Positions 10,034-28,141 of a stretch of 64,000 nucleotides of DNA are shown here, piece by piece. Position 1 is the stretch's first letter. The number at the start of each line of letters is the position of its first letter. Source of the stretch: Ostreococcus lucimarinus (Eukaryota); assembly GCA_000092065.1 (NCBI GenBank), contig CP000593.1; one strand, given 5' to 3'. The position numbers and the translations under genes are program-made. The notes beneath the pieces are model-generated. The model was not told the origin of the DNA, did not search any database, and saw only the letters and a list, made by a program, of their open reading frames with translations.

Positions 10034-10132
10034 GGCGCGTCGCGCCGCGCGCGTCGTCGTAAAGTGTCGTCGTCGTCGTCCCGCTCGTCTCGTCCCGACG
10101 GCGACGGTTCGCGACAGTGCGCGACGCGCGCG

Positions 10133-11000
10133 ATGGCGAACACGCTCGAGGAGTGGTACGCGAGCGTGCCGACGGTGACGCGCATGTACCTCACGCTGAC
10201 GTTCGCCGTCACCGTGGGCTGCGCGCTCGAGGTGCGTCGACGGAAGCGCTCGATTGGATTCGACGCCGAGCGACGAAGATTCGATTCGCGCGGCGAAGGG
10301 GGCGACGCGCGCGAACGGCGGGAGACTGACGACGCGCGCGCGCGACTCGACGCAGTTGATCTCGCCGCTGAACGTGTACTTCAACAGTAAGCTGATATTT
10401 CAAGAGTACGAGCTGTGGCGGTTGGTGACGAATTTCTTCTTCTTCGGCTCGCTCGGCGTCGACTTCGTGTTTCACATGTTCTTCCTGAGCCGGTACTGTC
10501 GAATGCTCGAGGAAGGGTCGTTTCAGGGACGGTCGTGCGATTTCTTTTACATGCTGCTGTTCGGGGGGACGCTGTTGACGGCGTTCGCGCCGTTCGTCAA
10601 CGTGCAATTTTTGGGGACGAGCCTGACGTTTATGATGGTGTACGTGTGGGGACGGAGAAACGCGGCGACGCAGATGTCGTTTTTGGGGTTGTTCAACTTC
10701 ACGGCGCCGTATTTACCGTGGGTGTTGCTGATTTTTTCCACCTTGATCGGATCGCAGCCGATCACGGATGCGCTAGGAATGATCGCCGGACACGCGTATT
10801 ACTTTTTGAAGGACGTGTATCCGGAGATGACGGGGAGGGAGCCGTTGAAAACGCCCGCAATCGTGTGCGCTTTGTTCGGTACGCGGCAGAGATTAGTCGA
10901 CACGGATGGGGTGCAAACGCGTGCGGCGCGACGCGCGCGGCGCGACGCGGGGGCGGCTGTCGAGGGAGCCGCTGGGGCGCCGCGAGACTTGAACGAGTAA
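10133..11000 (+). CDS. Derlin (Der1-like ERAD component), two exons: 10133..10231 and 10356..11000 (248 aa)
   Basis: Exon 1 MANTLEEWYASVPTVTRMYLTLTFAVTVGCALE matches the Derlin N-terminus (MAQAVEEWY...TTVGCSLE). Exon 2 LISPLNVYFNSKLIFQEYELWRLVTNFFFFG... matches the Derlin core. Joined across a GT...AG intron, in phase. It is divergent from the KLHDC4-like gene, with only 99 bp between the two ATGs. Confidence 0.85.
10232..10355 (+). other. Spliceosomal intron (124 nt) of the Derlin gene, introner-like family member
   Basis: Donor GTGCGTCGAC. Internal gcgctcgattggattcgacg and cgaagattcgattcgcg. Branch region GAGACTGACGACG. Acceptor CGCAG. The intron removes an in-frame stop and causes a frame change between the two ORF-track pieces. 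Confidence 0.8.
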
Positions 11001-11086
11001 AGCGACGATATAGAAAGCGACGATATAGAAATGTTGTGAACGAGACGACTTAGAATTGACAAGAAAAGAAAGCCTTTCGCGCTATT

Positions 11087-14000
11087 CTATTGGAGTGCGG
11101 TAACGATCGTATCCATGACCGCAGCCGCCGCGACGGCGTCCATCGAAGCGACGGTGAATCTATATCGTCCGCGCACGTTCGCGTCGCTCTCCACGCGAAC
11201 GCCCACAAAGACTTCACCGCATCGTTCGCCGACGAACCGGCTTCCCGCGATTAAGTTTGCGGGGTTTGGATCTAAGCCTTTATGTACGACGAGCCGCATG
11301 CCCGAGAAGGCGTTTGACACGCTTTCGATGCTCGTCGCGTACTGCTGCGACACGTCCATAATTTTCTGTTGCTGCCCGGCGGACGCCATCTGGTGCCACT
11401 TGGCGATGAACTCTTGCGGCGAAGCGATGGTCATCGGGCTCAAAAACTTGGTCACACGTACGGGCAACTCCAGAGACCTGGCACACGCCGCCGCGACGGC
11501 GGTGGACGTGTACGAAAACTCGAGTTTTGGCGCCGAGGCAAACGCCGACGTAATCGCTACTTGCAACATCAACTGCACCTGGCGCTTCGGTCCGATGGAC
11601 GCGGGGAAGGGTTGAAGACTGTGACGCAAGCCTTCGATCGACGGTATGACCATTCTGAAGTTTTGCAGATCCGCGCTCGCGGACTTGTTCCCAACGTAGA
11701 ACATCACGCGACCTTGAGACCCTTGCCACTGCGATTTCACGCCAATCTGTACGTTCGCGTCTTCATACAGCAAGCCGTTGTCGGCGATGAGGAACCGTTT
11801 CGCGCAGTCTTGAACGTTCACCGTGGGTTGAATACCGTCGCTCGACGTCAATGATTGTACCGGTGCCACGGGTTGCGTCGGTGCCGGCGCCGCGGGCGCC
11901 GGCGCACCCAGAGCTCCAAAGGCGTCTAAGGCGTCGCCGTGCGTCGCCGGCGGCGGTTGCGTCGCCGCGAGCGCGCCTAAGCCTAGTAAATCGTCTAAAG
12001 CGTCTGCGGACGATGTGGTCGTCACCGGCCCCGCGGGAGGTGACGTGGAACTCGGAAGTGCGAGACGCTCTTCTACCGCTGGAAGTGCGGGAGGGGCGTT
12101 TCCGAGAAGCTCGTCGAGATTCATCCCAGTCGACGACGGCGGAAGCGCCGCCGGCGCCGAAGATCCGTCGCCCATCAAGTTGCCGAGCAAATCTGTGACG
12201 GCATCGACCGGCGGTGCTGCGGCTGCAGGAAGCGCCGGCGCCGACCGCGCCTGAGCGCGGGGTTGCTCTCTCGCCGTCACGACACCACTCATGGCAAGTT
12301 TACGAACTCCCGCGGCGACGTCCGAGGCGACGTTTTCTACTTGTATGTGCTTCTCCAACACGCTCGAACGTTCAGGGTACTCGGGCATGGGCTCGAGAAT
12401 CGGTCGCATGTTCGGTCCGAGACGCAAGAGCTTCAGATATTCGTTTGCACGTTGCTGCAACTCGACGTCAAACGATGAGCTCATGTCGGTGAACACCTTC
12501 ACGATCTTACCCATCGACGCCTGATCGCAATTCTTGTGCATCGCAACCTTGACGAAGGCTGTGAGCATGATGCCCTGCGTGACCTCATCCGTATCCTGGA
12601 ACAGTGGCACTAAGAGATCGACGTACTGCGACGCGGGAATGGGAAGCAAATACCCAAACTCTCCGATGCAGTACGACATCGCGCGAAGCATGAGTTCGTT
12701 CGACGCGCCCTCGTCGCGCAACTTGACGAACATCAATTGCGCCGTGCGACCGTGAAGCGACGCGTCGTTGGTTGCGATTTGCACCATGCGATGCCACAAG
12801 TCGTCGTTGATGAAATCGCCCGCCTTGTCTATCATTTGCATCGCGATCTCAATGAACCACATGCGATCGTTCACGCTGTAGCGCTCGGCCAAGATGGCCG
12901 TTTTGAGCGCCAGTTCCTCGCGAATGTCAAAATCAGCGGTGACGAAGTACTTGATGAGCTCCTCGATGACAGAGTGCACGTTGGAAGCATCGCACATAGA
13001 AAACAATAAAGTCAACGCGCGGCGACGAATGGAAATGTCCGCGTCGTGCAACGCAGCCACGACTTGCTCTTGGTACACCTTTATGGCTTCTCGCAAATCC
13101 GCCATCGCCGCGAGGGCGTTGAGCGTGTTGAGAGCCAAGTAGCGAATATTCGGTTCCTTCATGTCGAGAAAATTCCCGAGAATCTCCACGCACGGGTCCA
13201 ACAGTTCGTGCGCGTAGTCCATGCTAGTAACTAAATTGATCGCCTCGAACAAGATGGCGTGCAGCGCATTGTTCTTATTGAAGTTTTTCACCGTGTCCGT
13301 CTTGGTGAGGATGTTTCGCATGGCGATGAGCTGCGAATCGAGCAGCGCCTGATCGTCTGGTGTGGGAAAGTACTGCAAAATCTTCATGCACTTCACCTGT
13401 AACCATGGAGAGGGAATACCGTAGTACAAATACTCGGGCGGAATGTCCTTATTCCTCGTCAATCGTTCCAACAACGCGATGACCTTGGGCACGCACGCCT
13501 CGTACCCTCGGTAATCGTGCTGCACGAGACCCAGCAACAAACCCAAGACGCCCATGAGCACCCCCAAATCGCGCTCGGCGTCGAGTAAGTCGGTCATTTT
13601 TGACGCGAACGTTTCCGCGAGTAAAATTTCAGGATTCTTACGAAACAACCTCAACAGACACAGCGCCGCCTTTTTCCGAACCACCGGCCGAATCGTCGGC
13701 GTCATCACAATCGTCTCCACGTCCCCAGCTAACGAATCCGCGAACTCCCGCCCCCCGACGTTCGCGATGCACGACAACCCCAAGCACTGATTCGTCTCAT
13801 TGCTCGAGATCACATCCGTGCGTATGCTATTGATGGCCATTCTCAAAAACTCGTTTCTCTCGTTCAATATCACCGACGTCGTCATGTACCCAACCTGTTT
13901 CTCCGCGTACGACGACGCCGATATCAACTTCAGCGCCTCGGTGTGTCCAAAGTCCACGTTATACCCGAGCATGTATATGTACAGCAGCTTCAGCACGTAC

Positions 14001-14322
14001 TTTTTCCGTTCGTACGCCGTGAGCGCGCGGTGGGTCTTATTGAATTTCCGTCGAATATTCGCCAGTTCCTTCTCCACGCGCGCGCGCTCTTGCTCCTGCG
14101 TTCGCGTTCGCGACGCGCGCGACCCTCGTCGTCAGTCCGCGCGCCTCTCTCTCGCGCTCTCGCCGCTCAACGCGTCACCGCGCGTCGTTTCGTTCGATCG
14201 AATGCCCTCGCCCGTCGTCGTCATCCCTCGCGCGCGCGCGCTCGCCGCACCTTATTACTGCAGTTCCGCACGTCTTGCACGAACACCGTCAGGCCGCGCA
14301 TACCACCGAGAAACGGCGCCAT
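11087..14322 (-). CDS. AP-2 complex subunit alpha (alpha-adaptin), two exons: complement(14251..14322) and complement(11087..14095) (about 1026 aa)
   Basis: Exon 1 MAPFLGGMRGLTVFVQDVRNCSNK matches human alpha-adaptin (GMRGLAVFISDIRNCKSK). Exon 2 EQERARVEKELANIRRKFNKT...KYVLKLLYIYMLGYNVDFGHTEALKLI... matches throughout, down to the appendage DPNPANL motif. The junction reads CSNK|EQERARVEKELANIR versus human CKSKEAEIKRINKELANIR. Confidence 0.9.
14096..14250 (-). other. Spliceosomal intron (155 nt) of the AP-2 alpha gene, introner-like family member
   Basis: Minus-strand reading: donor GTGCGGCGAG; internal gggcattcgatcgaacgaaacgacgcgcgg; branch GGACTGACGACGAGGG; acceptor GAACGCAG. Confidence 0.8.
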
Positions 14323-14542
14323 GTCGCCGCGCGCGCGCGTCGCGTCGCGTCGTCGAGTGCAGATCGTCCCGATGAGTCAACGGAAATTCGTCACAAATTC
14401 GCGACTCCGCGACGCGCGCGCCCTCGCGCGCGCTCGAACGCGCGATGCGAACGCGCACACGTATCTTTGTGCGCGTCTGATGGCGTCCGAGTCGCGCGCG
14501 CGAGCGCCGATCGCGCGCGCGAGGCGCGAAACGTTGAAGAAG

Positions 14543-17110
14543 ATGCCGCGGTCGAGTCGAGCGAAGCGGCGTCGCGGCGTCGCGGCGACGGCGCTCGCGC
14601 GCGCGCTGATCGCGGCGTCGTGGTCGTGCGTCGTCGCGCTGCGCCCGGGGGCGTCGATGTCGATCGACTGCGTGACGCCCGAGGTCGGGCCGGCGGTGGG
14701 CGGGACGCTGGTGACGCTCGCGGGCGAGGGGTACGGCGGGAGCGCGGACGCGGCGTGCGCGTTCGACGACGCCGTCGTCGCGCCGACGTCGAAGGGGACG
14801 CAGAGCGGGCACGCGACGATGGTGTGCCTGAGCCCGAGGCACGCGGACGATCGAGGAGGGTTCGTGAGCGTGGGGCTGACGCTGCGAAGGGCGAACCGAG
14901 CGGCGACGACGGCGCCGATGAATGAAAACGGCGAGACGTTTAATTTCGCGAAACAGATGTCGGTGACGAACGCGTACCCGACGGACGCGCCGGAGATCGG
15001 GGGAGAGGTGTTTTATTTGCAAGGGAAGCACTTGCACGAGGCGGTGAGCGTGCGATGGACGAAGCCGGTGACGCACGTGGGGGTGGACGTGGTGTCGAGC
15101 GCGTTGATTCGATGCGAGACGCCGCCGCTGACGAGCGGGGAGATTTCGTCCATGGTGATCGCGACGTTCACGGCGTCGCAGAGCGAGTACGACGCGAATG
15201 CGCTCGCGGCGACGACGGCGAATCAGACGGTTTCCATACCTCCGCGATCGCGCGGAGTGTTGGGATTTGTGTTGGAGACGAATGACTTTTCGCTCACGAG
15301 CGCCACGTCGAGCGTCAACGTCACGGGCGGCACGCCCGTGTTGGTCACGGGGAACGGTTTTAGCACCGTCGGCGGGGAGGACGACGGAGACTTTTTGAGT
15401 TGCTTCTTTGGCACGATAGGCCCCATCGACGCGCGCGTGACGGCGTCGAAGACGGCGACGTGCTACTCGCCCGCGCGCGCGGCGGCGGCGAGCGTGCCGT
15501 TGCGCTTGGGCATCGGCAACGGTCGCTTCGTACTCACGACGACCGTGAACGTGGCGTTTACCGAAACAACGCGACAGACAACCGACCCACTTGAGCCCGC
15601 GGAAGAGGCACAGAGCTTGGTGGTGATGAATCCGACGCTAGACGTCGCGAGCGGCGCGACGCCGTTTGACGTCGTCCTCGGCGGCAATTTCTTCGTTAGA
15701 GGTTCAGGTTTTTCTTTCGATTATGATGACGGTTGCGTGTGCACCTATCCCGATGCCTCGACTTCACGATTGGTGTACGTATCTAGCGCTATCGCGCGGT
15801 GTTTGGACACCCCGACTTGGACATCGGGAGAGGTGAAAATTAGCTGTAGCGCCGACGCGAACGCGGTGGTTCGCTCCGTGTACGTCGCCCCCGTGGCGGT
15901 GCCAACGATCACGAGCGTGGACGTGCTGACGATCACGCATCAGGGTGGCGTGGCGTTACAAGTCACTGGGACGTCGTATCCCGACGAAGGCGAGAGTCGA
16001 GCGTATTCGGGATGTCATTTCGGTGCCGTCGGTCCCGTGCACGCGCGATATATGAGCGGGACAGTTGCCGAATGTGTGACACCGGCGTTGAAGCCGTCGC
16101 AGAGCGCGCTCATGCTCGGGTTCGGGGCGACGGAGTCGGTAGATTTAGTACAGTACGGGTTGACTATTCCAGTCACCGCGGAGACGACGTCGGCGTACGT
16201 CGCGCCGCCGTTGTGGTTGACGCCGGCGACGACATACCTCGCTGCGGCGACGGCGAAAATAATCGTCGGGGATCATCAACAGCTCGGGACGTTGTCCGTG
16301 GGAACTTTGAAGTGCGTGTTCGGTTCAGGAAATTTAAATGCCACTGTCGGTACGTACGTCGCACCCTCAGTGCACTGTCCGACGCCCGCACTCCTGTCCC
16401 CAGGCTTCGTCGTCGTGCGATTGGCGCGCGACGCCGCCGCGGCGTCGCTCGATCCGCCGGCGATTTTGTTAGTCAAGGAAGACCACGCGGTTACTGGCGC
16501 GCATCCGCGCCAGACCTGGGGACCGGTAGACGTGATATCAATCACGGGATCGAATCTCATATCCACGCACGTCGAGGGAACGATAGATTCCGCGAAATCG
16601 CTGTGCGTGTTCGGCGGCGGCGCCGGCGTCTCTGGTGGCGTCGTTGTTTCGAGCGCGTTGATCATGTGCGAGTCTCCGCTCGCAGAGTCCACGGGTGTGG
16701 TCGAGCGTTGGGTGACGCCGTGTTTCGAAGAGTGCGATTCCACCAAAGCATTACCCACCGGATCGACCGCCTCCGCCTCGCACACGCGCGTGGCGTTGAC
16801 GTCCATGGCGCAATCGTACATGTCCGCCGTCGACGCGGCGAGCGGTTGGACATTCGGCGGCACGCCAGTTCGCGCCACGCTCTCCATCGCCGTCGCGAGT
16901 GAGATGCTTACGTGCCACTTTGGTTCCACGCGCGTCCAAGCCCGCCCCGCGGGAGTCGCCGTCGTCGAAACCGTCGCTTCGGCGCAGGGCGAAAACATTG
17001 AAATCGACTGCGTGTCCCCCGCGCGCGAGCGCGGATCCGTCACCGTGTACGCCACCCTGGCGCAATCCCGCGCCCCACTCTTGAGCGGTGTGGCGTTTCT
17101 GTACAAGTAG
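14543..17110 (+). CDS. Secreted or cell-surface protein with signal peptide and at least five IPT/TIG (immunoglobulin-like fold) domains (about 855 aa)
   Basis: ATG at 14543 (an alternative upstream ATG is at 14480). [33 protein letters not shown] looks like a signal peptide. Repeated IPT/TIG signatures: SIDCVTPEVGPAVGGTLVTLAGEGYG, VNVTGGTPVLVTGNGF, LTITHQGGVALQVTGTSY, ISITGSNLI, WTFGGTPVRATL. The track ORF start at 13943 overlaps the AP-2 alpha gene and is rejected. Divergent from AP-2 alpha with a 220-bp promoter region. Confidence 0.6.
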   Translation: MPRSSRAKRRRGVAATALARALIAASWSCVVALRPGASMSIDCVTPEVGPAVGGTLVTLAGEGYGGSADAACAFDDAVVAPTSKGTQSGHATMVCLSPRHADDRGGFVSVGLTLRRANRAATTAPMNENGETFNFAKQMSVTNAYPTDAPEIGGEVFYLQGKHLHEAVSVRWTKPVTHVGVDVVSSALIRCETPPLTSGEISSMVIATFTASQSEYDANALAATTANQTVSIPPRSRGVLGFVLETNDFSLTSATSSVNVTGGTPVLVTGNGFSTVGGEDDGDFLSCFFGTIGPIDARVTASKTATCYSPARAAAASVPLRLGIGNGRFVLTTTVNVAFTETTRQTTDPLEPAEEAQSLVVMNPTLDVASGATPFDVVLGGNFFVRGSGFSFDYDDGCVCTYPDASTSRLVYVSSAIARCLDTPTWTSGEVKISCSADANAVVRSVYVAPVAVPTITSVDVLTITHQGGVALQVTGTSYPDEGESRAYSGCHFGAVGPVHARYMSGTVAECVTPALKPSQSALMLGFGATESVDLVQYGLTIPVTAETTSAYVAPPLWLTPATTYLAAATAKIIVGDHQQLGTLSVGTLKCVFGSGNLNATVGTYVAPSVHCPTPALLSPGFVVVRLARDAAAASLDPPAILLVKEDHAVTGAHPRQTWGPVDVISITGSNLISTHVEGTIDSAKSLCVFGGGAGVSGGVVVSSALIMCESPLAESTGVVERWVTPCFEECDSTKALPTGSTASASHTRVALTSMAQSYMSAVDAASGWTFGGTPVRATLSIAVASEMLTCHFGSTRVQARPAGVAVVETVASAQGENIEIDCVSPARERGSVTVYATLAQSRAPLLSGVAFLYK

Positions 17111-17206
17111 TTTTAGCTCGTAGCGTCGCGTCGCGGCGACTTCTGTAGCGAGTCCGGTCGAACGAATTCGCGTCTCGCCGCGCGCCGCCCGCCGTCCCGG
17201 CACATC

Positions 17207-17955
17207 ATGGCGTCCCTCGCGCGACCGGGCGTCGCCTACACCCTTCGCGGCGCGTTGTATCTCGCGTTGACCAACCAAACGAATGCGACGCCGCTGACGC
17301 GACTCCGCGGACCCGCGTTCTCGATGCCGGCGTCGTCAAAGTTTCAGTTACTGACCGAGCCCGAGCCGACGGCTGCTGAACTCGTCGACGTCATCGACGC
17401 CTTCTACGACGCGCTGCCGCCCATCGCGAGCAGGTGCGTCGACGCGACCGCGCGCGCGGCTCGATTCCACCCGCGAGCGTCTCTCGCGCTCGATCGGACC
17501 CCGCGCTGACGAAAGAAGTGACTCTGGACGACGCGCGCAGCGGCGAGAGCGACCCGGGCGTCGTCTTCGCGGGATACGGCGAACCGTTGCTGCGCCACGA
17601 CGTGCTGTGCGACGCGCTGCGAGAGATACGAGCGCGAAGACACGGAATCGCGACGCGCGTCGCGACGAATGGACTGGTGGATGTGGCGGTGTGCGACGCG
17701 TTGCGGGACGCCGGATTGCGAAGCGTGACGGTTAACTTTGCGAGCGCGGATCCGGATGAGTACGCGCGAATCATGGCGCCGAGGGACGGAAGGACGCAAG
17801 GAGACGCGTTGGCGTTCATTGAACGATGTAGTGAACTCGGGATGGAGGTAGAGGCGACGACGACGCGAACGCCCGGCGTGGATATCGCTCGCGCCAGAGA
17901 GCTCACGATGGCGCTCGGCGCCAGCGCGTTTCGAGAACGCGAATATTTCCCTTAG
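17207..17955 (+). CDS. Radical-SAM-fold protein lacking the CX3CX2C cluster (cysteine-less, putative pseudo-enzyme), two exons: 17207..17433 and 17541..17955 (213 aa)
   Basis: Spliced product ...LYLALTNQTNATPLTRL...LLTEPEPTAAELVDVIDAFYDALPPIAS|S|GESDPGVVFAGYGEPLLRHDVLCDALREIRARRHGIATRVATNGL...VTVNFASAD... carries the radical SAM core motifs (GGEPLL-like GYGEPLL, TNG, VxVSxD). Where the canonical CNxxCxYC segment should be it has TNQTNAT. The intron is phase 2 and the splice restores the frame exactly (107 nt). Confidence 0.55.
17434..17540 (+). other. Spliceosomal intron (107 nt), introner-like family member, in the radical-SAM-like gene
   Basis: Donor GTGCGTCGAC, an identical 10-mer to the Derlin intron donor. 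Internal gcggctcgattccacc and gcgctcgatcgg. Branch GCGCTGACGAAAG. Acceptor GACGACGCGCGCAG (compare Derlin GACGACGCGCGCGCGCGACTCGACGCAG). Confidence 0.7.
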
Positions 17956-18007
17956 AGCATTTTCCCTTAGTTTATTGTGAATACGTGTTGTACAACGATG
18001 ATCGAAG

Positions 18008-20965
18008 CTATGTATTGTGCAGTCGCGATCTTTTCGCGGGCGTGAAGTCGTCGGCCAGCTTGCGGACGGGCGCACGATTCGCCAACGGCGTCGACATCGC
18101 GCCGCCGACGGGTGTCGCGGCGACAATTGCTCGCGGTCCCCCGCGCATCGGCGCGGGCGTGGTGCCGCCCATGGGCGTGCATTTCACTATCGCGGGCGTC
18201 GATAGCGCGCGGTTACCGCTCGGTGCGGGCGTGGCGCCACCTTGGAGAGCTGAATGGCGCGTAACGCCGCGAAACGTTTGCGGTCGCGGATGCGCGAACG
18301 TCGGCTTTTTCAAATCTTTGACGGACACCTTGACTTCCTTCGTGTTGTTCCGCCCACGCGCGAGGTGATGCCAGCCCTCGTGCGGTTTCGCCTTAATTTT
18401 GAGCTTCGGCGCCGGTTCTGCGGGTGCGAGTCTTTCCGGTGCTTTCGGCTTTCTTGGTGAGCGCCTGAGCGCGGGCACGGGAGAAAACGGCGTCAACGCG
18501 ACGGCACTTGCGTCGCCGCCGGCGTCGGGTTCCATGGTCAAGCCGAGATCGCGCTGCAACACTCGCAAAGTGTCTGGTATGAATCCGCTATAGTGTGGAG
18601 TCAACTCTGCCGCCATCAACGAGCGCACGCCCTCGACGCCGCAGGGTTGAAGAAGAAAATGAATCTCGTCCACCAACTTTTGCACAGACTTGACGAGTTT
18701 CTTTTGCTCTTTCTTCGAGATGGCGCGCTCTTCGACAGCCTCGCACGCGTCCGCGCCATTCTCATCGCGCACTTGCGTCACTTTGAGAGAAGCCAACTGC
18801 AGCGCGACGTGCATCTGTAATATGAACTCCAGCCGCTTGGCCGCCTTGGATGAGTGTACACCGACGTACTTTGCCTTGAGCTCTTTTGAATTCTTCGCGA
18901 TTGCGCGTTCGAGTCGCTCGACGAGATTATCGTCTTCGTTCGAGCCCACGCTCAAGCGGAATCGATAAATAATCTTGGCAGCGAAATCATGGAGATTCGG
19001 CTCGTTCAATCCGTCCCCACCTTCGAGCGCGCTGAACGTAGCGACGAATGACTCGTATTCCTCGAGCGCCGCCTGTTCGACATCCCCAGTCCATGGCGGC
19101 ACGTCAGCGTCCATTGCAAACACCGTTAGCGTAGACGCGAGCGATCGTCGCGCTCGTGACTTTCGCGGCGGCGAAACAATGCCATTATGGCGTTTGAGCA
19201 TGTCCTTGAACCGTTCATCGAGATTATTCAAGAGTTCGCCCGCGGTGTCTGAAGATTTCGTCGCTTTATCTTCCACGCGACGCAACATTTCTCGAGTCTT
19301 TGGCACCAAATCGCGCGAGCCGTACCAAGCTTCCAACCGAGAGGCATCTTGTTGCACGCCAATTCGCTGGTCCGCGATGAAAGCTTCCTCAAGGGTGTTC
19401 ACATCGACCGGCATCAGCGGCGCACTTGAGCTCTGCGTCGCAGCGTCCATCGACAACACTTGTTGCGTCAACGCTAAAGAATCCTGCGTCGCCGGAGGTG
19501 ACACAATCTTCTCGCGCACGTCTTCGCGAATCTTCGCGAGCAATACGTGCACATTTTCGAGTGACGCTAAACAATCTCGCCTCGACGCGAGTTTAACAAT
19601 TTCGCTCCGAGCGCTCGCTTTCGCTGCCGACGCGCGCGGGCACAGCTCGCCAGGCGTCGTCTTCAGGGAAGTGACGATGAAGGACGAACACGTCAACGGC
19701 TCTAGAATCGCGATCTGCTCGTGTCTCCCAGCATCGCGTCGGACGACTGCGACTGCGTCTTTTAGTACAAGCATCGCCATAAGCGCACGAATCGGCGAGT
19801 CGTCAAAGCACAAAATGGTTTGCGTTTCAACAGCCAGCGCCGCGGCTGAGGGCGCTTCGGCGCGGTCGATGAAACCGACAATGGCAATCGAACCGTCACC
19901 TCGACCATGATATCGCGCTTGATGGGCTTCGCCTAAGCGATGCGCCGATTGCGAGTCTCGAGTCTCGACGATTATGTCCACCGTACTTGTCGACTCCACC
20001 GTAGTCGTGGACGCGCTCGCCTCGTCACCGCGGCTCAGCGCCGAGAGCGTCGAATACAGCGGCAGCCAGGACGCGAGTCTGCTCGCGACATCGAGCGATA
20101 TCACCGCACCATTCAATTTATGAAACGTCTCTTGCAAGACGTCCGCGAACGCGCCCGTCGGTCCGTCGCCGACGTACAACAAATGCGCTCGAACGCGGTC
20201 TCGCTTGAACTTCTCCTCGATGCCTTTAAACAACTTGGCCACGTGCTTCGCATCAACCTTCGCCGCTTCCGCTTCCGACAGCTCGGGGAGTGCGGTGATG
20301 ATGAATAACGCGCTGTACTTCTCGCCTTCGTCGTCGTCGTCCGCGAAAGTCGCGGCGAATCCGCCGCCCGCGGCGGCGAAATCGTTCGTCGCCGCGCCGA
20401 CGTTCCGCGTCGCGTTCACCAACCAACTCTCGATCGCCCCCCGTCCATCCTCGTCGCTCGCCGCGACGTCGCCGCCGCTCGTAAATGTCTCTAAATACTC
20501 CCCGCACGTCGTCTCGCACGTCCTGAACGCGTCCTCGACGGCGTTTTTGTCGCACCGCCGAAACTTTCCAAACTCATCGCCGCGTCGTCCCGTCGCCTCT
20601 CGCGCCCGCGCGTCGAACGCGTGCGGCGGCACCGACCCATCGCACGCGCGCACGGTAAATTCAACGTCTTCGCCCGCGCGCCCGTCGACGGCGCGTTCGA
20701 GCGCGCGGCGCGCGAAGGTTTTCCAAGTTGAAGATTTAAAATCAGCTCCCGACGTCGACGCCGACTGCGTCGCGCTCGCGCGCTCGCGCGTCGCGCGCGC
20801 GTCGACGAGAAAGTGCACGCGTCGCGGGCGCGCTGTGTGCGCGGCGTCGACGCGCATGTCCCGCGCGCGCGGGTGAGTGACGCGGTGCCTGGATCCGAGC
20901 GCGCTCGACGCGAAGCCGAGCGGCGAGCGGCGAGCACACGCGCTGTCGGCTCGCGGACGCGCCAT
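18008..20965 (-). CDS. Hypothetical 985-aa protein with a C-terminal tail rich in Ser/Thr-Pro motifs; possibly a Treslin/Sld3-like replication factor (speculative)
   Basis: ATG at 20965. Non-repetitive composition over 900 aa. The C-terminus (TPAPSGNRALSTPAIVKCTPMGGTTPAPMRGGPRAIVAATPVGGAMSTPLANRAPVRKL) is packed with minimal CDK-type S/T-P sites. An N-terminal segment SALFIITALPELSEAEAAKV loosely resembles the Treslin N-domain. No decisive family motif. Confidence 0.45.
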   Translation of the reverse strand: MARPRADSACARRSPLGFASSALGSRHRVTHPRARDMRVDAAHTARPRRVHFLVDARATRERASATQSASTSGADFKSSTWKTFARRALERAVDGRAGEDVEFTVRACDGSVPPHAFDARAREATGRRGDEFGKFRRCDKNAVEDAFRTCETTCGEYLETFTSGGDVAASDEDGRGAIESWLVNATRNVGAATNDFAAAGGGFAATFADDDDEGEKYSALFIITALPELSEAEAAKVDAKHVAKLFKGIEEKFKRDRVRAHLLYVGDGPTGAFADVLQETFHKLNGAVISLDVASRLASWLPLYSTLSALSRGDEASASTTTVESTSTVDIIVETRDSQSAHRLGEAHQARYHGRGDGSIAIVGFIDRAEAPSAAALAVETQTILCFDDSPIRALMAMLVLKDAVAVVRRDAGRHEQIAILEPLTCSSFIVTSLKTTPGELCPRASAAKASARSEIVKLASRRDCLASLENVHVLLAKIREDVREKIVSPPATQDSLALTQQVLSMDAATQSSSAPLMPVDVNTLEEAFIADQRIGVQQDASRLEAWYGSRDLVPKTREMLRRVEDKATKSSDTAGELLNNLDERFKDMLKRHNGIVSPPRKSRARRSLASTLTVFAMDADVPPWTGDVEQAALEEYESFVATFSALEGGDGLNEPNLHDFAAKIIYRFRLSVGSNEDDNLVERLERAIAKNSKELKAKYVGVHSSKAAKRLEFILQMHVALQLASLKVTQVRDENGADACEAVEERAISKKEQKKLVKSVQKLVDEIHFLLQPCGVEGVRSLMAAELTPHYSGFIPDTLRVLQRDLGLTMEPDAGGDASAVALTPFSPVPALRRSPRKPKAPERLAPAEPAPKLKIKAKPHEGWHHLARGRNNTKEVKVSVKDLKKPTFAHPRPQTFRGVTRHSALQGGATPAPSGNRALSTPAIVKCTPMGGTTPAPMRGGPRAIVAATPVGGAMSTPLANRAPVRKLADDFTPAKRSRLHNT

Positions 20966-21025
20966 GAATGAATGAATGCGCGTATCGATACAAACTCTGC
21001 TGGAGTGATCACTAGTAGAAACTTC

Positions 21026-24000
21026 TCAGGATAAATCGAAGCCGCTGCCGGACTTGACGGCGTACATTAATTTTTCGCGCAACGCGTCGTCGGAAGAATA
21101 CGGCGGTAGTTTCAGAAGGTTCATGCACGTCGCGGCGGTGGGAAGCCTGGTCAAGTCCGCGGTCGCGTCGGGGGCGTCCGTGCCCGCGGTACCGCTTCGA
21201 TGCACGCACAGTTTGGGTTCGAGATGCGAAAACCCGAGCAGTGGTGTGTTGCTGCACGAGGTGATGAATTTGAGCACCAAACGTTGGTCGTCTGGGGAAA
21301 TCGTACGCATGACGCGCCACAACGCGCGAATCGTCGGATGCGACGCCTCGTAGCCGCCAGAGTATTCGCAGTTTGCCGCCATGTCATCGATGTCCATGCT
21401 TCCCGTGCGATTACCTGATATGAGTAATCGCAGTTCGGCGGGGGTGAACATGTCGAGCCAACGCTTGCGAACGGCGATGCTAAAGCCCGCCTTCATGCTC
21501 GAAAGTTGGCGGTAGATTTGCGCTCGAAGCAAATAAATCGACATGCAATGAAGGTACCGCGGGACGTTAGCCCTCGTCACCGGTACGCTCGAGCCATTCG
21601 GGATGAGCTCGATCACAGTTTCTTCCATGCCACTTCGATCGATGGCGGTAAAGTACAGACATAAATCCTCGACGTCGCCTTGGTAGCGTTTGAGCGAAAC
21701 CAAGTTGCGATAAAGCTCGGGATCGAGCGTCGTCAGGTCGTTAAACTCGACGTGTCGACCTTTCAGCGAGGCGAGGAAGAAATCAGCGAGTGGAACGTCG
21801 AGAAGAATCCCATCGTAGCACGCTTTGCCGAGGATGGCGCCGAGAAAGTAAAAGTACTGCAAGTGTCGCTCGCCCGCGTGCAACTCAGACGCTGGATTCG
21901 GGTAGAGCGTGCGCTCGGGCGTCTCGACGAACAAGCCGAATTTCGGATCGAACGCTTCCGCAATTAAATCGTTCAAGAAATCTTTGAATAAACCGCCGCC
22001 GTCGACGCCAGCCTCTTCGAGCCCTTGCTGATTGATGAACTGCACGCGAATGATTCCGCCGAGCGTCTCTGTGAGCTTATCCGAAAGACCGGCGATGCCG
22101 TCTTCGAGCAAGTGCCCGCGTCTTACGCGAATCGTGGCGTAACCAACGGCGCCCATTTGACGCTCGCGACGACGGACGTCCATGAATTTGTGCACGCGCA
22201 CTTCGAACGGTACCAAACACGGTGCACCGCACAAAAGCATCGACGCGCGCGATTTTGCATCGCGGGCCTCTTGCAAAAGCGTTGGGATGTCCACTTGGGC
22301 GTCGCGCACTTGAAACTCGAGCGGGTTCATAAATTGATGACGCCCGTTGCGATCGTGCAGGCGCGCGAGCGCTATAGAACACGCGTGCCATGTCTCCGCC
22401 TCGAAATATTCGTCGATGAAAGACAGCGCGTTTAAAGGTGTGCCATCCGGACCCCGTTCAACCCACAGCAACGTCCAGAGCGTGTCTCTTAAAAATGCGA
22501 CGAGACGCGTCGTCGCCTCGAGACCGAGCGGTTTTCCCAGACGATAAAATTCTTCATCGTCGGAAATAGCGGTGTAGGTGTTGTACAACTTTGCGAAAAC
22601 GCCCAAGGCTCTGCGGAACGAGCGTTCTTGCCCACCTCCGGAAGTTTGCCTCCAATGCTCGAGGGCGGGCCAAAGTTGAGCGATGCAATCCGTGCCAAAC
22701 GTGAGCACGCGCGTGAACGACGCTCGCTCGGCGCCTCTGAGCACCATGTCGCACGCGCACGCGAAATGCGTGAACCCTTCGATGCCTACTAAGCATCGCT
22801 GCGCGTCGTTCGCAGGCATGATCGTTGTGACGAGTCGCGCGACACACGCGTTGTCGCCGAAGAATTCGCGCGTTTGCATCCACGTCCTCGTGGCTCGCAC
22901 CGCCTCCATGTCCACGTCAGGGGGCACGCGTCGAATTTTACGCGCCTCCGCGCGCACGGCGCGAAGATTGAGTAAGTCAATCTTGACGCTATCGTCGTCG
23001 TCGTCGTCGTCGTCCGCACCGCCCTCGTCATCGTCTTCGTCCTCCATCGCGTTCGGCGTTGTGGCAAAGAGCGCGCCGCTCAAAACAGACGACTCCATGA
23101 GTTTTGTCACCGCGACGACGACATTCTGTGACTGCGAAAAGTCCATCGTACCTATGAACGTTTTCGTGAGTTGCAACACGTTCCCGAGCGCGGCGTCGAC
23201 GCCGCTCAGCGGCGTCTCGAGTGCGACGGTAGCCACCGAGTCGACGTGACGATCAGACTTGAACGCGTCGACGACGAACGACCACAAATCTCTCGAATGA
23301 ATCTCCGGCCCGAACGTGTCCCACACCCCGGGTATCGTCGCGAGCATCGACGCGAGCGCACCACTCGCGTCGTCACCGCTACACCGCGCGATGTTTTCGC
23401 ACGTCCTAAGCATCGCCGCCCGAACGACGTCGTCGCGGCGACTTTGATTTCTCAAAATATCGAGCAAAATCTCTCGCACATCTTCCAAACCATCGTTCGA
23501 GCACAGAGTCGCGCACAATTGAACGCCAGTATCTTTCCATCTCGCGTCATCTCTCGCCATGAGCGCCAACAAAGCGCTCGCTAAGTGCGTCTCCGCGACG
23601 TCGCGTCCAGTCGTCTCCTCCAAGCGCGTCGTCGCTCGAAGCGACCCCACGATCAACCGCACCATCTTCCGCATCCTAATCACCCATCGCGCGCGCTCCA
23701 CGCCCGACGCCCGCATCGCGTCGTCCCATCTCTCCACGAACGCCTCGCTCGGCGCCACGCTCGTCGTCGTCGTCGCCGCCGCGTACAACCGTTCACACGC
23801 CGCCGCGCACGCCGCCCAATCTCTCCATCCATCACCAAAATACACCAAAGCCCTGCACGACGCGTCATCAACCATCACACCTTCGCTCGCGTTCGCGTAC
23901 GCTTCCCTCACCGCCGCTTTCGCGCGTCTAACCTCCCGCGCGCCTCGTCGAAACCGCTGCGCCGTCGCCGTCGCCGTCGCCGTCGCCCTCTGCGCCGCCC

Positions 24001-24124
24001 TCCGCTCCCGCGCCTCGCGCGCGCTCTCGATCAGCGCCCGCTGCGTCGACGGTTCATCCTTTCGCCGTCCTCCGAGCGAGATGTGTCGCTTTTTCGTCGT
24101 CGATCCGTCGAACACCGGCGCCAT
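21026..24124 (-). CDS. HECT-type E3 ubiquitin ligase, UBE3B/UBE3C-like (1032 aa)
   Basis: N-terminus [24 protein letters not shown] parallels UBE3B MFSFEGDFKTRPKVSLGGASRKEE. C-terminal HECT lobe with [39 protein letters not shown] parallels UBE3B [39 protein letters not shown]. It contains a coding (AT)n dipeptide repeat, (GCCGTC)6, at about 23961-23995. Confidence 0.9.
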   Translation of the reverse strand: [1032 protein letters not shown]

Positions 24125-24347
24125 TCGTTCGCGAGTTTACCAAACTGTGTCAATCGAGATTCACAATCGCCGACCGCGCGCGACGCGCCGCGCGCCGCGC
24201 GACGTCGGCGCGTCCGCGCGACGCGCACCGACGCGTCGACGCGCGTCGACGCGCGATTCGCGCGCGATTCGTGCGCGCGCGCGCGAATGCCGGCGGAATG
24301 ACGCGACGCAATCGTCACTCGCCGACGCATCGGCCGCGCGCGCCGCC

Positions 24348-27300
24348 ATGGCGTCGCGCGCGACGACGCGCGACGTCGACGACGGCGGCGTGTTATTCCC
24401 GCGGTGCGTTACGCCGACGCGCTCTCGCGCGCGCGCGCGTCGACGCGCGACGACGACGCGATGATGACGCGACGAGGGCGCGCCGACTGACGCGACGAAT
24501 CGACGAAACGACGCGCGCAGAGTGACGCATCAGCGCATCGACGTCGACGTGAGGCGCACGAAACGCGCGCTTCGCGGCAGGACGACGCTGACGTGCGCGG
24601 GCGCGGACGGCGCGTTCGCGGGCGCGCGGGTTCGCGCCGAGGGGTTGAAGATCGCGTCGTGCGCGATAAACGGTGCGAGACGCGCGAGGCGAAGCGACGA
24701 CGACGACGACGACGACGAGCGATTCGAACGATGCAAACGATGCGATGCGACGCGATGCGACGCCGCGACGAGAGGAGGCGCGAGCGGGGAGACTGACGGG
24801 TGATGGATGGAATTCGACGCGCGCCAGGCGTGGAGTGTCGAGCGACGAAGACGAAGACGAGTAAACCGACGATCGGGACGAAGACGGCGCCGAGCGATGC
24901 GTTGAGCCTGGCGAAAGACGTGCGGACGTATTTGGAGTCTGAGAGTAACTTGGACGGAGAGGAACACTCGAGGGAGGTGGTGATCGCGCCGGTGAGCGGG
25001 GAGAAGATTGAGGCTCGAGCGCGAGGCGCGGCGAACGGGGAGTCGACGTCGGCGACTACGGAGAAGGAAATCGTGATTGAGATCGAGTACGAAACGGACG
25101 AAAGCGCGATGGGAATCGCGGCGGATGAATCGTACTTTTTGTGCCCGGGGGCGTCGAGGCGGCCGGCGTGTTGGTTTCCGTGCGTCGAGCGAGGGGACGT
25201 GCTGACGACGTTTGATTTCTCGGTGAGCGCGCCGAGGGATTTGCAAGTCATCACGTCCGCGCATTGGGATCGCGTCGAGCGGTGCAACGACATCGATGAA
25301 GACGAAGACGGCTTTAGGCTGCGACATCACTTCACGGGGATGTATCCGACGTTTGCGCACGAAATGCGATTGATTTGTGGCAGGTTCAAGGCGGTGTCGA
25401 GCCCGATCAAAGGCGTGACTTTGTTCGCTCCCAAAGACGGCGATTACGCCGAGCGCTTGGAGATCGCGGCCGCGGGTGTGAGTAAGGCTATCGTGGCGTA
25501 CGAGGAATATCTCGGGCATCCGTACCCTATTTCGTGCTTGAATATCGTCTTCATGCCGGACGAGTACGTGGGAGCGCGCGATAGCTTGGGCGCGTGCATG
25601 AACATTCACTCGGCTAAATGGTTGATAGACCCGACGCTCAACACGGCTTTGCTCGATGCGCGCGTGCATATCGCCACCGCCATCGCGCGACAGTGGTTCG
25701 GGGGCGTCGTCGTCCCGGCGGATACCACGGACTGTTGGGTCGTGGAAGGACTGGCGCAGTATCTCGCCGGCGCGTATGTGAAAAAGTTGACGGGATTGAA
25801 CGAACTGTCGTTCAGGCGCATGCGCGACATGCAATTGACGGCGCGGATGGACGACGGTGAATCACTCCCCCCTCTCGCCAGTCGTGCGGCGCGCATTTGG
25901 CGCGCCGGACAGTACGCCGGCCCCGACCTTGCCGCCGGCGGGACGCCGAAGCCACTCTCGGCGAGCGTCGAGCGCGGGTTGCAAGCCAAGGCGGTGACGA
26001 TCATTTACATGCTCGAGAAACGCCTCGGGCCGGATGTCATGCAGAAGGTGTTGAAATATTTCGCAGGATTGCATGTTCGTAGAAATAAGAAGGAGGGCGG
26101 GACGCGCGCTGGTCCCTCCGCGGAGGTGCTGTCGAGCAACGCGCGTTGGATTCACACGCTGCAACTCTTCGATCACTGCCGCGCGACGGTCAACTTGGGC
26201 AAAGGTGAGGTGAACTCCTTCTTAGAACGCTGGGTGTATGGCGCGGGCACGCCGAAGCTGTGCGTTGGATACGTTGTGAAACGTAGGAAAAACGTCATGG
26301 AGTTTGCGGTCAAACTCGAAGGGAGCGTCGCGGCGGCGGCGGCCGACAGAGCGGCACTCGCCGTCGCCAGAAACCATCGCACTTCGGTCACCGTGCGCAT
26401 GCGCGAAGAGAACCGCCCGGATGCGAACGATCACGTCGTATCGCTAGGACATTCTGCTTGGCAGTTGATGGAGATTCCTCTGCAACCGAAAATCAAAGAT
26501 CGTCGCCCGAAGACAATCATCGAATCTGGAGGTGACCCCGAACTCATCGCCGCGATGGATTGTCCGGTACGATACGTCCGCGTGGACCCGGAATTCGAGT
26601 GGATGGGCAACATAGAACAAAGTGCGAAGCAGGTCGGGTTAGAGTCGATGATGGCGCAGATGCTGGAGAAAGAAAAAGACATCGTCGCGCAAACCATCGC
26701 CGTGGAATTTCTCGGTCGCCGCGTCGCCAACGGATCCGTGAGCGCAGTTCTCGTGCTGGATAAGTGTCTGAACTCTGAGGATACCTTCTGTCGCGTGCGC
26801 GCCGAAGCAGCGCTAGCGCTCGGCAAAAGTGCGAGCGAGAAAACGCAATGGGGCGGATTGAACGCGTTGATTCGGCATTACAAAAAGTTTCAGTGCGACG
26901 CCAACACGGGAAAGCCGAAACAAAACGACTTTAGAGACCTCGCGAAAGTCATCGTTGACGAAGCCGTCATCACGGCGCTTGGTTACGTCATGGATAACGG
27001 AATCACCCATCAGGATGCGCTCGAGGCTATCGTTGCCCGACTAAAGTATAACGACAACGAGGGCAATCCGCAGAGTGATGACGGATTCGTGGCGACGTGC
27101 ATCGCCGCGCTCGGCCGCTGCGTTCCCGCGGATGGCAAGCAACTGCAAACCGTCATGCAGACGATTCATTACTACATTCGGCGTGATGACAGATTTCCAA
27201 GCGACGACCTTTGCGTGACGTGCGCTGGAATCAGAGCGTTAGGCTTACTCGCTTCGACGATCGACTCGAAAGAGCTCCGCGCCGACGCCGAACACGTCGC

Positions 27301-28141
27301 CAAACTTGGATTCGCGCTCGGTAGACAATCCACCGTGCTCGCTTCCGCGGACACGATGATGTACCTTCGCTTCGTCGAAACTAAGAGCGAGATCGAAGCG
27401 CTCAAGTACATGCTTGAACGATCGGCGCAAGAGTCTGCGGCGACAAAGGCTGCCATGTTGTGGAGCGCGTGCGAGTACTTGCAATCCGTCGCCGGGGCGG
27501 ATTCTTTGAAGGGCGTCTCGAAGCCGATATTGGCCGACCTCCGTGATCTCGTGCTAAAGGGCGGAAGCGAAATTGCGAGCGCGGCGTTTTCGATCCTCGC
27601 CACGCTCGCTTCGCAAGATGAGAGCCTGAGTGAGATTCGAGAATCCATCGCCGAGGCGATTCGGCGCGCGGGCGATCAAGTCCCAGTCGGCGTCGATGTC
27701 CACGCCGCGCACGCCGCGCCAACGGCTGAGGATGAAGTCAAGCGCGCGGAGAAGGAAGCTAAGCGTGCTCGGAAGCGAGAACGCGAGCGCTTGCGACAAG
27801 CCGCGCGCGCCGAGGTAGACTTGAAAAACGCTGAACAGCGTAGAATCGACGCCGAGGCGGCGTTTGTCGAACAGCAAGCGGAACACGTACAAGACGACAA
27901 GACGACCGTCTCCGAGCGCACGGCGACGATGATGGGATCAGAAGGCGACGCCACGCCTCAAGGTGGTACTCCGGTGGGTGGCCTGAAGCGCGCGAGAGAT
28001 CAGAATCCGAGCGTCACGCAGTTTGCCGTGGAGCCTGCGGCGCCCGTCGCGACGGAGGACGCCGCGCCCGCCGCGACGGAGGACGCCGCGCCCGCGAAGA
28101 AGCTCAAACTTTCGTTCAAAATTAAAAAACCCACGACGTAG
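24348..28141 (+). CDS. TAF2: Transcription initiation factor TFIID subunit 2 (TAF2), three exons: 24348..24403, 24521..24672 and 24828..28141 (about 1173 aa)
   Basis: Main exon: FLCPGASRRPACWFPCVERGDVLTTFDFSV matches human TAF2 [32 protein letters not shown]. Aminopeptidase-N-like region (WVVEGLAQYLAGAYVKK), HEAT-like body and K/E-rich tail. Upstream exons: MASRATTRDVDDGGVLFP-R-VTHQRIDVDVRRTKRALRGRTTLTC... parallels human [32 protein letters not shown]. Exons are joined by two GT-AG introns of the introner-like family. Phases are consistent (56 nt + 152 nt + 3314 nt). The upstream exon model is less certain than the main exon. Confidence 0.75.
24404..24520 (+). other. Spliceosomal intron 1 of TAF2 (117 nt), introner-like family member
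   Basis: Donor GTGCGTTACG. The intron contains tandem in-frame stops (tgatga), so the two exons cannot be one ORF. Branch CCGACTGACGCGACGAATCGACGAAACGACG. Acceptor GCGCGCAG. Confidence 0.6.
24673..24827 (+). other. Spliceosomal intron 2 of TAF2 (155 nt), introner-like family member
   Basis: Donor GTGCGAGACG. Internal gattcgaacgatgc (compare the AP-2 alpha intron cattcgatcgaacga). Branch GAGACTGACGGGTG. Acceptor GCGCCAG. Same length (155 nt) as the AP-2 alpha intron. Confidence 0.6.

What the first reader, a model, noticed from the sequence alone, without database searches (positions are those of the whole stretch)
17207..17955. Cysteine-less radical-SAM-fold protein (candidate pseudo-enzyme)
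After splicing, the 213-aa product keeps the radical SAM core signatures (GYGEPLL, VATNGL, VTVNFASAD, terminal helices). The position that normally carries the 4Fe-4S-binding CNxxCxYC motif instead reads LYLALTNQTNATPL, so all three cysteines are replaced. The N-terminus (MASLARPG...) could be a targeting sequence. Such a protein cannot do SAM radical chemistry and may be a regulatory or structural paralog.
Basis: partly seen in the sequence, partly recalled or inferred. Interest (0 to 1): 0.55.

Follow-up and report, generated by a model that had tools for sequence, protein, structure and literature searches.

The report
Radical-SAM-fold protein without its iron-sulfur cysteines
This is a real, conserved algal gene for a small protein that keeps the full shape of a radical SAM enzyme but has lost all three cysteines that hold the essential iron-sulfur cluster, and it belongs to a large, apparently undescribed family of such cluster-less proteins in marine algae.

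Summary

The gene is not decaying. Against a 97%-identical strain pN/pS is about 0.11, and indels not divisible by three fall in the intron.

It is not a one-off. Of 178 related "RGPxF-type" sequences (Mamiellales-like picoalgae, diatoms, brown and other stramenopile algae), none has the full triad, whereas all 100 bacterial relatives do. The GxGEP, TNG and other core residues stay conserved in both groups.

Canonical radical SAM chemistry is therefore excluded for this protein. A cluster-free ligand-binding or adaptor role is the best guess, and it is untested. The proposed N-terminal targeting peptide is not supported. I found no prior description.

The parts
17207..17433 (+). Exon 1 (227 nt, codons 1-75 plus 2 nt). 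It encodes the short N-terminus, strands b0/b1 (VAYTL, LYLAL), the former cluster loop TNQTNATPLTRLRGPAF (T25, P29 and R32 replace Cys1-3) and helix 56-69.
   Evidence: Alignment to the bacterial TIGR04100 protein. Against the strain locus L005 it has 13 substitutions, of which 8 are at third codon positions and 2 more are synonymous TTG>CTG changes.
17434..17540 (+). Intron, 107 nt, GTGCGT...CGCGCAG, phase 2.
   Evidence: An unspliced reading stops at 17509. The spliced junction reproduces IASSGESDPG of intron-less orthologues. Against strain L005 the intron carries 4 indel events of 2, 1, 1 and 2 nt, none a multiple of 3.
17541..17955 (+). Exon 2 (415 nt including the stop TAG at 17953-17955). 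It encodes the radical SAM core strands b2-b6 with AGYGEPLL (GGE-type motif), RVATNGL, VTVNFASADPDEY and the C-terminal FREREYFP.
17273..17302 (+). Codons 23-32 (NQTNATPLTR). This is the exact position of the ancestral CX3CX2C cluster-binding motif.
   Evidence: Family census.
17306..17320 (+). Codons 34-38 (RGPAF). This is the RGPxF signature that marks the cluster-less algal family. R34 is shared with the bacterial relatives. G35, P36 and F38 are specific to the family.

Best explanation
The locus is an intact two-exon nuclear gene of a Mamiellales-type green picoalga, kept by selection. Its 213-aa product descends from the small (about 200 aa) bacterial TIGR04038/TIGR04100-type radical SAM proteins. 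It keeps their complete partial-barrel fold but has lost all three [4Fe-4S] ligands and the aromatic residue between Cys2 and Cys3.

Shown: it cannot assemble the canonical site-differentiated cluster. It therefore cannot cleave SAM reductively to a 5'-deoxyadenosyl radical.

Inferred: the rest of the ancestral pocket is still conserved across both the cluster-less and the cluster-bearing relatives (GxGEP, R94, R115, T118-N-G120, Y150, R209, Y11, Y18). The protein most likely still binds a ligand in the barrel, either SAM or an adenosine-type nucleoside or the ancestral substrate. It would then act without redox chemistry as a binding, adaptor or regulatory subunit, or possibly as a non-radical enzyme, working with a partner protein.

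Rare fusions point to a partner-dependent role, possibly linked to nucleic acids. These are fusions to TPR, ankyrin, DnaJ and a 3'-5' exonuclease domain, together with the TatD-nuclease association recorded in the name of the nearest bacterial family. This last step is speculative.
For: Gene reality and selection:
- The splice junction is confirmed by six intron-less orthologues of 58-65% identity.
- Synteny is conserved: a TIG-domain gene upstream and a roughly 1000-aa gene downstream on the opposite strand.
- Against a 97%-identical strain there are 16 synonymous and 5 non-synonymous codon changes, pN/pS about 0.11, and the frame-breaking indels lie in the intron.

Fold:
- Pfam Radical_SAM is above its threshold.
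- The AF2 model has pLDDT 96.7 and pTM 0.92, and the former cluster loop is confidently ordered.

Cys loss at the homologous position: full-length alignments to Monoglobus WP_320691400.1, which reads LYVNITNRCSNACVFCVR.

Family-wide pattern:
- An HMM search of 1.84 billion representatives gave 614 hits at E<=1e-10, and none of the best 150 has CX3CX2C.
- The census over distinct aligned sequences gives 178 RGPxF-type: 103 with no Cys at the three positions, 73 with Cys1 only, 2 others, and 0 with a full triad. All 100 bacterial relatives have the full triad.

Pocket residues are conserved in both groups.

Fusions.

Named members: Phaeodactylum, Chaetoceros, Tribonema, Triparma and Ectocarpus, plus an MMETSP transcript.
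Against: - There is no experimental or expression data for this gene.
- Ligand binding is inferred from motif conservation only. The model coordinates could not be inspected.
- In radical SAM enzymes SAM is anchored largely through the unique iron. Without the cluster, SAM affinity may be lost, and the conserved motifs may be purely structural.
- Each fusion is a single or rare case, and one (L006) needs an assumed intron or frameshift.
- No true TIGR04038 sequence was recovered, so the TatD link rests on the family's name alone.
- No TatD gene lies among the six neighbouring ORFs examined.
Confidence: 0.6

Rival explanations
1. Gene-model artefact. The real protein has a CX3CX2C motif encoded by a missed upstream exon, or hidden by a sequencing frameshift.
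For: A 97%-identical strain contig (L005) carries a 1-nt insertion in exon 2. This shows that assemblies of this locus can contain frame errors.
Against: - The stretch homologous to the bacterial Cys loop is present in exon 1 and simply substituted.
- Six intron-less orthologues and more than 170 family members show the same loss.
- The upstream gene's stop is at 17110, only 96 nt before the ATG, with no in-frame ATG between them.
- The window's exon 2 frame is corroborated by P0001 (99% identical) and by all orthologues.
Confidence: 0.02
2. A decaying pseudogene, that is, a relic of a radical SAM gene no longer under selection.
For: The catalytic ligands are lost. One related strain contig has a frameshifting 1-nt insertion.
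Against: - pN/pS is about 0.11 between strains.
- Twenty-seven positions are at least 85% conserved across lineages as distant as green picoalgae and diatoms.
- The reading frame is intact and the splice sites are canonical.
- The AF2 model is very confident.
- A family member occurs as a complete MMETSP transcript.
Confidence: 0.03
3. Still a redox or radical enzyme that binds an Fe-S cluster through non-canonical ligands, through a partner's cysteines, or at a dimer interface.
For: - Non-canonical cluster arrangements exist in the superfamily (ThiC, Dph2; background in PMC4389238 and PMC11048331, listed).
- 41% of family members keep Cys1, and many have Cys at columns 166 (77%) and 181 (47%).
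- Many diatom members carry an insertion with two conserved Cys.
Against: - The window protein has T25, L166 and A181, so it has none of these semi-conserved cysteines.
- Its three cysteines (99, 127, 172) lie in three different helices of the model (H91-108, H125-132, H162-174). They are not conserved among its nearest orthologues.
- No column shows conserved His.
- The aromatic residue of CXXPhiC is also lost.
Confidence: 0.07
4. A neo-functionalised, non-radical enzyme. The half-barrel has been re-used for polar chemistry on SAM or a nucleoside or nucleotide, with R34, R94, R115, Y11, Y18 and Y150 as catalytic or binding residues.
For: - Polar pocket residues are strongly conserved in both the cluster-less and cluster-bearing groups.
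- The family-specific invariant RGPxF replaces the cluster loop, and that loop is predicted with confidence.
- The family is large and old, which fits an active function.
Against: No residue set diagnostic of a known polar mechanism was identified. No metabolic gene context is available in eukaryotes. Several fusions are to protein-interaction modules rather than to enzymes.
Confidence: 0.25

Closest known systems
TIGR04038 (NCBIfam 'TatD family nuclease-associated radical SAM protein')
   Same: It is the best-scoring curated family for the window protein (E 4.9e-19, aligned 9-211 against 2-191 of 192 model positions). It is also a hit for all 41 family members tested (best 2.1e-41). The size is the same, about 200 aa, with a single domain. 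JGI/IMG labels several algal members with this name.
   Different: The window protein scores 68.9 bits, far below the 129.7 cut-off. It has no CX3CX2C. It is eukaryotic and interrupted by an intron. No TatD gene was seen among its six neighbours. No bona fide bacterial TIGR04038 sequence could be retrieved here for direct comparison.
TIGR04100 family radical SAM protein (for example Monoglobus pectinilyticus WP_320691400.1)
   Same: It is collinear over the full length: hhalign probability 99.5%, E 4.7e-23, and BLASTP 25% identity. Shared features are the Y..LY..(L/I)TN start, GYGEP, R.NTNG, SLNASN..EY and the C-terminal FR.REY.
   Different: All 100 bacterial members retrieved have CX3CX2C with an aromatic residue before Cys3. 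They are encoded directly downstream of an HATPase_c protein. The window protein has T, P and R at the Cys positions and an RGPxF signature instead. It scores 53.5 bits against a cut-off of 262.
Structurally characterised small radical SAM cores: NifB, PFL-activating enzyme, MoaA
   Different: Those enzymes need the cluster for SAM binding and cleavage. The role of the GGE motif next to the cluster and SAM is described in PMC10267522. The window protein has no cluster ligands, no auxiliary cluster domain, and only 17-22% identity to them.

Membership tests
Radical SAM superfamily (Pfam PF04055, structural core) | Sequence profile match above the curated threshold | tested here: met
   PF04055 gives 45.9 bits against a cut-off of 29.5, E 9e-12, over residues 82-189. 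Only profile positions 47-151 are matched, so the Cys-motif part of the profile is not.
Radical SAM superfamily (Pfam PF04055, structural core) | Partial (beta/alpha)6 TIM-barrel fold | tested here: met
Radical SAM superfamily (functional definition) | CX3CX2C (or variant) triad binding a site-differentiated [4Fe-4S] cluster | tested here: not met
   The homologous positions are T25, P29 and R32. No alternative conserved Cys or His exists.
Radical SAM superfamily (functional definition) | GGE-type SAM-binding motif after strand b2 | tested here: met
   A86-G87-Y88-G89-E90-P91 is present. G87, G89, E90 and P91 are at least 80% conserved in both the algal and bacterial groups. It aligns to NifB AGPGEPL.
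Radical SAM superfamily (functional definition) | Reductive cleavage of SAM to a 5'-deoxyadenosyl radical | not testable with these tools
   This needs biochemistry. It is excluded by inference from the absent cluster ligands.
TIGR04038 TatD-associated radical SAM | HMM score at or above the curated cut-off (129.7 bits) | tested here: not met
   68.9 bits. Some other algal members reach E 2e-41.
TIGR04038 TatD-associated radical SAM | Encoded next to, or fused with, a TatD-family hydrolase | tested here: not met
   The neighbours are a TIG-domain protein, an unknown 985-aa protein, AP-2 alpha-adaptin, a HECT ligase, a Kelch/IQ protein and TAF2. Adjacency is not expected in a eukaryote, so this test has little force.
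TIGR04100 radical SAM (paired with an HATPase_c protein) | HMM score at or above the cut-off (262 bits), and a partner gene directly upstream | tested here: not met
   53.5 bits. No HATPase_c neighbour was found. The bacterial pairs are seen.
Cluster-less 'RGPxF' algal family (defined here) | Y11, Y18, T22 and R34-G35-P36-x-F38, with AGxGEPLL, TNGL and a C-terminal (F)RxR..Y, and no full Cys triad | tested here: met
   The query has every one of these features.

The most novel reading that the evidence does not exclude
The RGPxF proteins are a widespread family of marine algae, seen here in green picoalgae, diatoms, bolidophytes, xanthophytes and brown algae. They converted an oxygen- and iron-dependent radical SAM enzyme into a cluster-free protein with a new biochemical activity or a new SAM- or nucleoside-sensing role. 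They may work with 3'-5' exonucleases of the TatD or WRN-exo type on nucleic acids. If so, they would be the first characterised radical SAM-derived 'pseudo-enzyme' lineage, and an example of dispensing with Fe-S cofactors in aerobic, iron-poor oceans.
Probability: 0.2. Interest if true: 0.8.

Novelty: new variant of a known kind. Interest (0 to 1): 0.55.

Why it matters
Radical SAM is among the largest enzyme superfamilies, and its definition rests on the [4Fe-4S]-binding cysteine triad. Here a family with hundreds of representative clusters is conserved under purifying selection in ecologically dominant marine algae. It keeps the fold and the non-cluster pocket residues but has no triad.

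This shows that the scaffold has a second, cluster-independent use. It also shows that automatic labels on these proteins are functionally misleading. Examples seen here are 'Radical SAM core domain-containing protein', 'TatD family-associated radical SAM protein', 'pyruvate formate-lyase activating enzyme' and 'wyosine synthetase'.

The family offers a tractable test case. Phaeodactylum and Ostreococcus can be transformed (from my own knowledge, not tested here). It could show how an oxygen-sensitive metalloenzyme fold is repurposed in aerobic, iron-limited phototrophs.

Tried and rejected
1. Upstream exon or alternative start. Rejected: the upstream gene stops at 17110 and there is no in-frame ATG before 17207.
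2. N-terminal transit peptide. Rejected: only 8 residues precede the conserved core.
3. Aligning the N-terminal 44 residues alone to PDB sequences. No significant hit, so it was uninformative.
4. Single-sequence PDB search. Only weak hits, best E 0.024. The family profile was needed.
5. Scans of bacterial and archaeal genomes and of viral contigs with Mamiellales-derived peptide patterns. No relatives found. As a result no true TIGR04038 sequence was obtained.
6. A profile search with 41 sequences in the word-indexed database saturated at 8000 candidates and gave little. A smaller bridging alignment worked.
7. The afdb50 fold library was unavailable, so UniProt-level taxonomy of structural neighbours could not be obtained.
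8. Alternative cluster sites from other cysteines. Rejected for this protein.
9. Literature searches for TIGR04038, TIGR04100, the Phaeodactylum accessions, 'radical SAM' with pseudoenzyme, and Cys-motif-lacking phrases. Nothing relevant was found.

Full report
**1. What is in the sequence**

On the + strand an ATG at 17207 opens a frame that runs into a stop at 17509 if read unspliced. A GT at 17434 and an AG ending at 17540 bound a 107-nt intron. Joining 17207-17433 to 17541-17955 gives 642 nt, which is 213 codons plus TAG.

The junction reads PPIAS|SGESDPGVVF. Six full-length homologues of 58-65% identity were recovered from metagenomic and genomic assemblies. They are encoded without an intron and read IASSGE(S/D)DPGVVF at the same place. 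The splice is therefore right.

The upstream same-strand gene is a TIG-domain protein that ends at 17110, 96 nt before the ATG. No in-frame ATG lies between them. There is no room for an extra 5' exon.

**2. Is the gene alive?**

A contig from a 97%-identical strain (L005) was aligned across the locus.
- In the two exons there are 21 substituted codons, 16 synonymous and 5 non-synonymous, giving pN/pS of about 0.11.
- The intron has four indel events of 2, 1, 1 and 2 nt, as expected for non-coding sequence.
- Gene order is the same in a more distant orthologous locus: adaptin, then the TIG protein, then this gene, then a roughly 1000-aa gene on the other strand.

The gene is under purifying selection. 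It lies in a compact, gene-dense eukaryotic genome of about 60% G+C, consistent with a Mamiellales picoalga. The organism itself was not identified.

**3. What is it?**

Sequence evidence:
- Pfam Radical_SAM is matched above threshold (45.9 bits against 29.5). The match covers profile positions 47-151 only, which is everything except the Cys-motif region.
- In NCBIfam the best families are TIGR04038 (TatD-nuclease-associated radical SAM; E 4.9e-19, end to end) and TIGR04100. Both are far below their curated cut-offs.

Structure evidence:
- An AlphaFold model built on a 41-sequence family alignment has mean pLDDT 96.7 and pTM 0.92.

**4. Where are the cysteines?**

A tblastn search of plasmids found a bona fide bacterial relative. 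It is Monoglobus pectinilyticus WP_320691400.1, annotated as a TIGR04100 family radical SAM protein. It is collinear with the algal family from the first strand to the last residue (hhalign probability 99.5%, E 4.7e-23; BLASTP E 4e-13).

Its LYVNITNRCSNACVFCVR lies on the query's LYLALTNQTNATPLTRLR. This gives Cys1 to T25, Cys2 to P29 and Cys3 to R32. The aromatic residue before Cys3 becomes T31.

The query's only cysteines are C99, C127 and C172. They sit in three different helices of the model and are not conserved, even among its six nearest orthologues.

**5. It is a family, not an accident**

An exhaustive HMM search of 1.84 billion representative proteins gave 1577 hits at E<=1e-3, 614 at E<=1e-10 and 75 at E<=1e-30. 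None of the best 150 contains CX3CX2C.

| Group | n | No Cys at the 3 positions | Cys1 only | Cys1+Cys2 | Cys2 only | Full triad |
|---|---|---|---|---|---|---|
| 'RGPxF-type' | 178 | 103 | 73 | 1 | 1 | 0 |
| Bacterial TIGR04100 | 100 | 0 | 0 | 0 | 0 | 100 |

None of the 100 bacterial proteins has the RGP signature.

Named members are Phaeodactylum tricornutum XP_002182381 (UniProt B7G5A2), Chaetoceros neogracilis, Tribonema minus, Triparma verrucosa and Ectocarpus fasciculatus, plus an MMETSP transcript. Every named member is a photosynthetic stramenopile. The window's own clade looks like Mamiellales.

The databases label these proteins 'Radical SAM core domain-containing protein', 'TatD family-associated radical SAM protein', 'pyruvate formate-lyase-activating enzyme' or 'wyosine synthetase'. 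All of these imply a chemistry the proteins cannot perform.

**6. What is kept and what is lost**

I compared the cluster-less group with the cluster-bearing bacterial group column by column. The following residues are at least 80% conserved, with the same residue, in both groups: Y11, L17, Y18, T22, R34, L49, P54, F85, G87, G89, E90, P91, R94, R115, T118, G120, Y150, F168, V179, G202 and R209.

- G87-x-G89-E90-P91 is the GGE-type motif that in active enzymes lies against SAM and the cluster (PMC10267522). It aligns with NifB's AGPGEPL.
- Lost specifically are the three Cys and the intervening aromatic residue.
- Gained and nearly invariant are G35, P36 and F38, directly after the former loop.

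The loss is therefore selective. The cluster site is gone, while the remainder of the pocket is still constrained.

**7. Mechanism**

Shown: there is no canonical cluster site and no conserved substitute ligands. The reductive cleavage of SAM that defines the superfamily is excluded for this protein.

Inferred, moderate confidence: the conserved pocket still binds something, either SAM or adenosine-like or the ancestral substrate. The protein would work without redox chemistry as a binding or adaptor subunit, or as a non-radical enzyme.

Speculative: a link to nucleases.
- The nearest curated bacterial family is defined by association with TatD. TatD is a 3'-5' exonuclease or DNase; this is my knowledge of the family, not tested here.
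- One family member (P0027, locus L006) has the ExoIII part of a DEDDy 3'-5' exonuclease domain in the same open reading frame as the cluster-less domain.
- Other rare fusions are to TPR, ankyrin and DnaJ modules. These fit a partner-dependent role.

Nothing in the window itself supports a TatD link.

**8.

- The N-terminus is not a targeting peptide. Homology to the bacterial protein begins at residue 9, and five of the six close orthologues have 8-13 residue leaders.
- 'Paralog' is not the right frame. No close Cys-containing copy appeared among the best 150 hits of the exhaustive search.

**9. Novelty and score**

Full-text searches for the family accessions, for the Phaeodactylum protein, and for radical SAM pseudoenzymes or Cys-motif-lacking members found nothing relevant. 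The library does not cover subscription journals, so prior mention cannot be excluded.

I class this as a new variant of a known kind: a cluster-less branch of the small TIGR04038/TIGR04100-type radical SAM proteins. Interest is moderate at 0.55. However, the function is unknown and everything beyond 'cannot do radical chemistry' is inference.

Noticed in passing
L005:3001-3800 (strain contig ena:ERZ10646505:contig_21309), corresponding to window 17629/17630: The 97%-identical strain contig has a 1-nt insertion (T) in exon 2. It would shift the frame after codon 105, and the gene caller split the locus into 143-aa and 88-aa ORFs. It is either an assembly error or a strain-specific pseudogene. 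The window's frame is intact and is supported by P0001 and all orthologues.
   Followed up: partly
P0096, P0100, P0111 (Phaeodactylum XP_002182381), P0129 and others; residues about 40-110 of those proteins: Diatom-type members carry an insertion of about 70 aa between the RGPxF motif and strand b2. It has two frequently conserved cysteines (..LCRVRD.. and ..W(C)xYLDxQE..QKLP). With Cys1 this could form a different metal or disulfide site in diatoms. It is not universal: Chaetoceros P0212 lacks both, and several members have Ser at Cys1.
   Followed up: partly
L006:1-1708 (logan:SRR22390403 contig), ORFs 3-605 and 705-1697: A single ORF joins the C-terminal (ExoIII, YAAQDA) part of a DNA_pol_A_exo1 3'-5' exonuclease domain to a cluster-less radical-SAM-like domain. 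The upstream ORF contains an FDTEW (ExoI-like) motif but gave no Pfam hit. A short intron or frameshift probably separates the two ORFs. This may be a Rosetta-stone hint of a nuclease partnership.
   Followed up: partly
L004:3012-4597; L007-L010:3021-4606; L011:3138-4606: In Monoglobus and Ructibacterium the bacterial TIGR04100 radical SAM gene sits directly downstream of, or overlaps by 4 nt, a 288-315 aa HATPase_c (GHKL-type ATP-binding) protein. This is presumably the unnamed partner 'X' of the family name. The pair's function is unknown.
   Followed up: no
P0228 (207 aa, metagenome): One RGPxF-type member still has Cys1 and Cys2 (LTNQCNTACSITVRGPGF). It may be an intermediate in the stepwise loss of the triad.
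   Followed up: no
Family alignment columns matching query L166 and A181: Many family members have Cys at these two positions (77% and 47%), in the helix before b5 and in b5. The window protein has Leu and Ala there. Their role is unknown.
   Followed up: no
window 8426-28138: The neighbourhood is typical compact eukaryotic housekeeping: Kelch/IQ protein (8426-10384, -), AP-2 alpha-adaptin (11090-14077, -), TIG-domain protein (13943-17107, +), a 985-aa ORF with no Pfam domain (18011-20965, -), HECT ubiquitin ligase (21029-24124, -) and TAF2-like (24800-28138, +). The adaptin and TIG ORFs overlap by about 135 nt at their 5' ends as mechanically called, so their true starts are probably internal. 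The many long antisense ORFs are a by-product of the high G+C content.
   Followed up: partly
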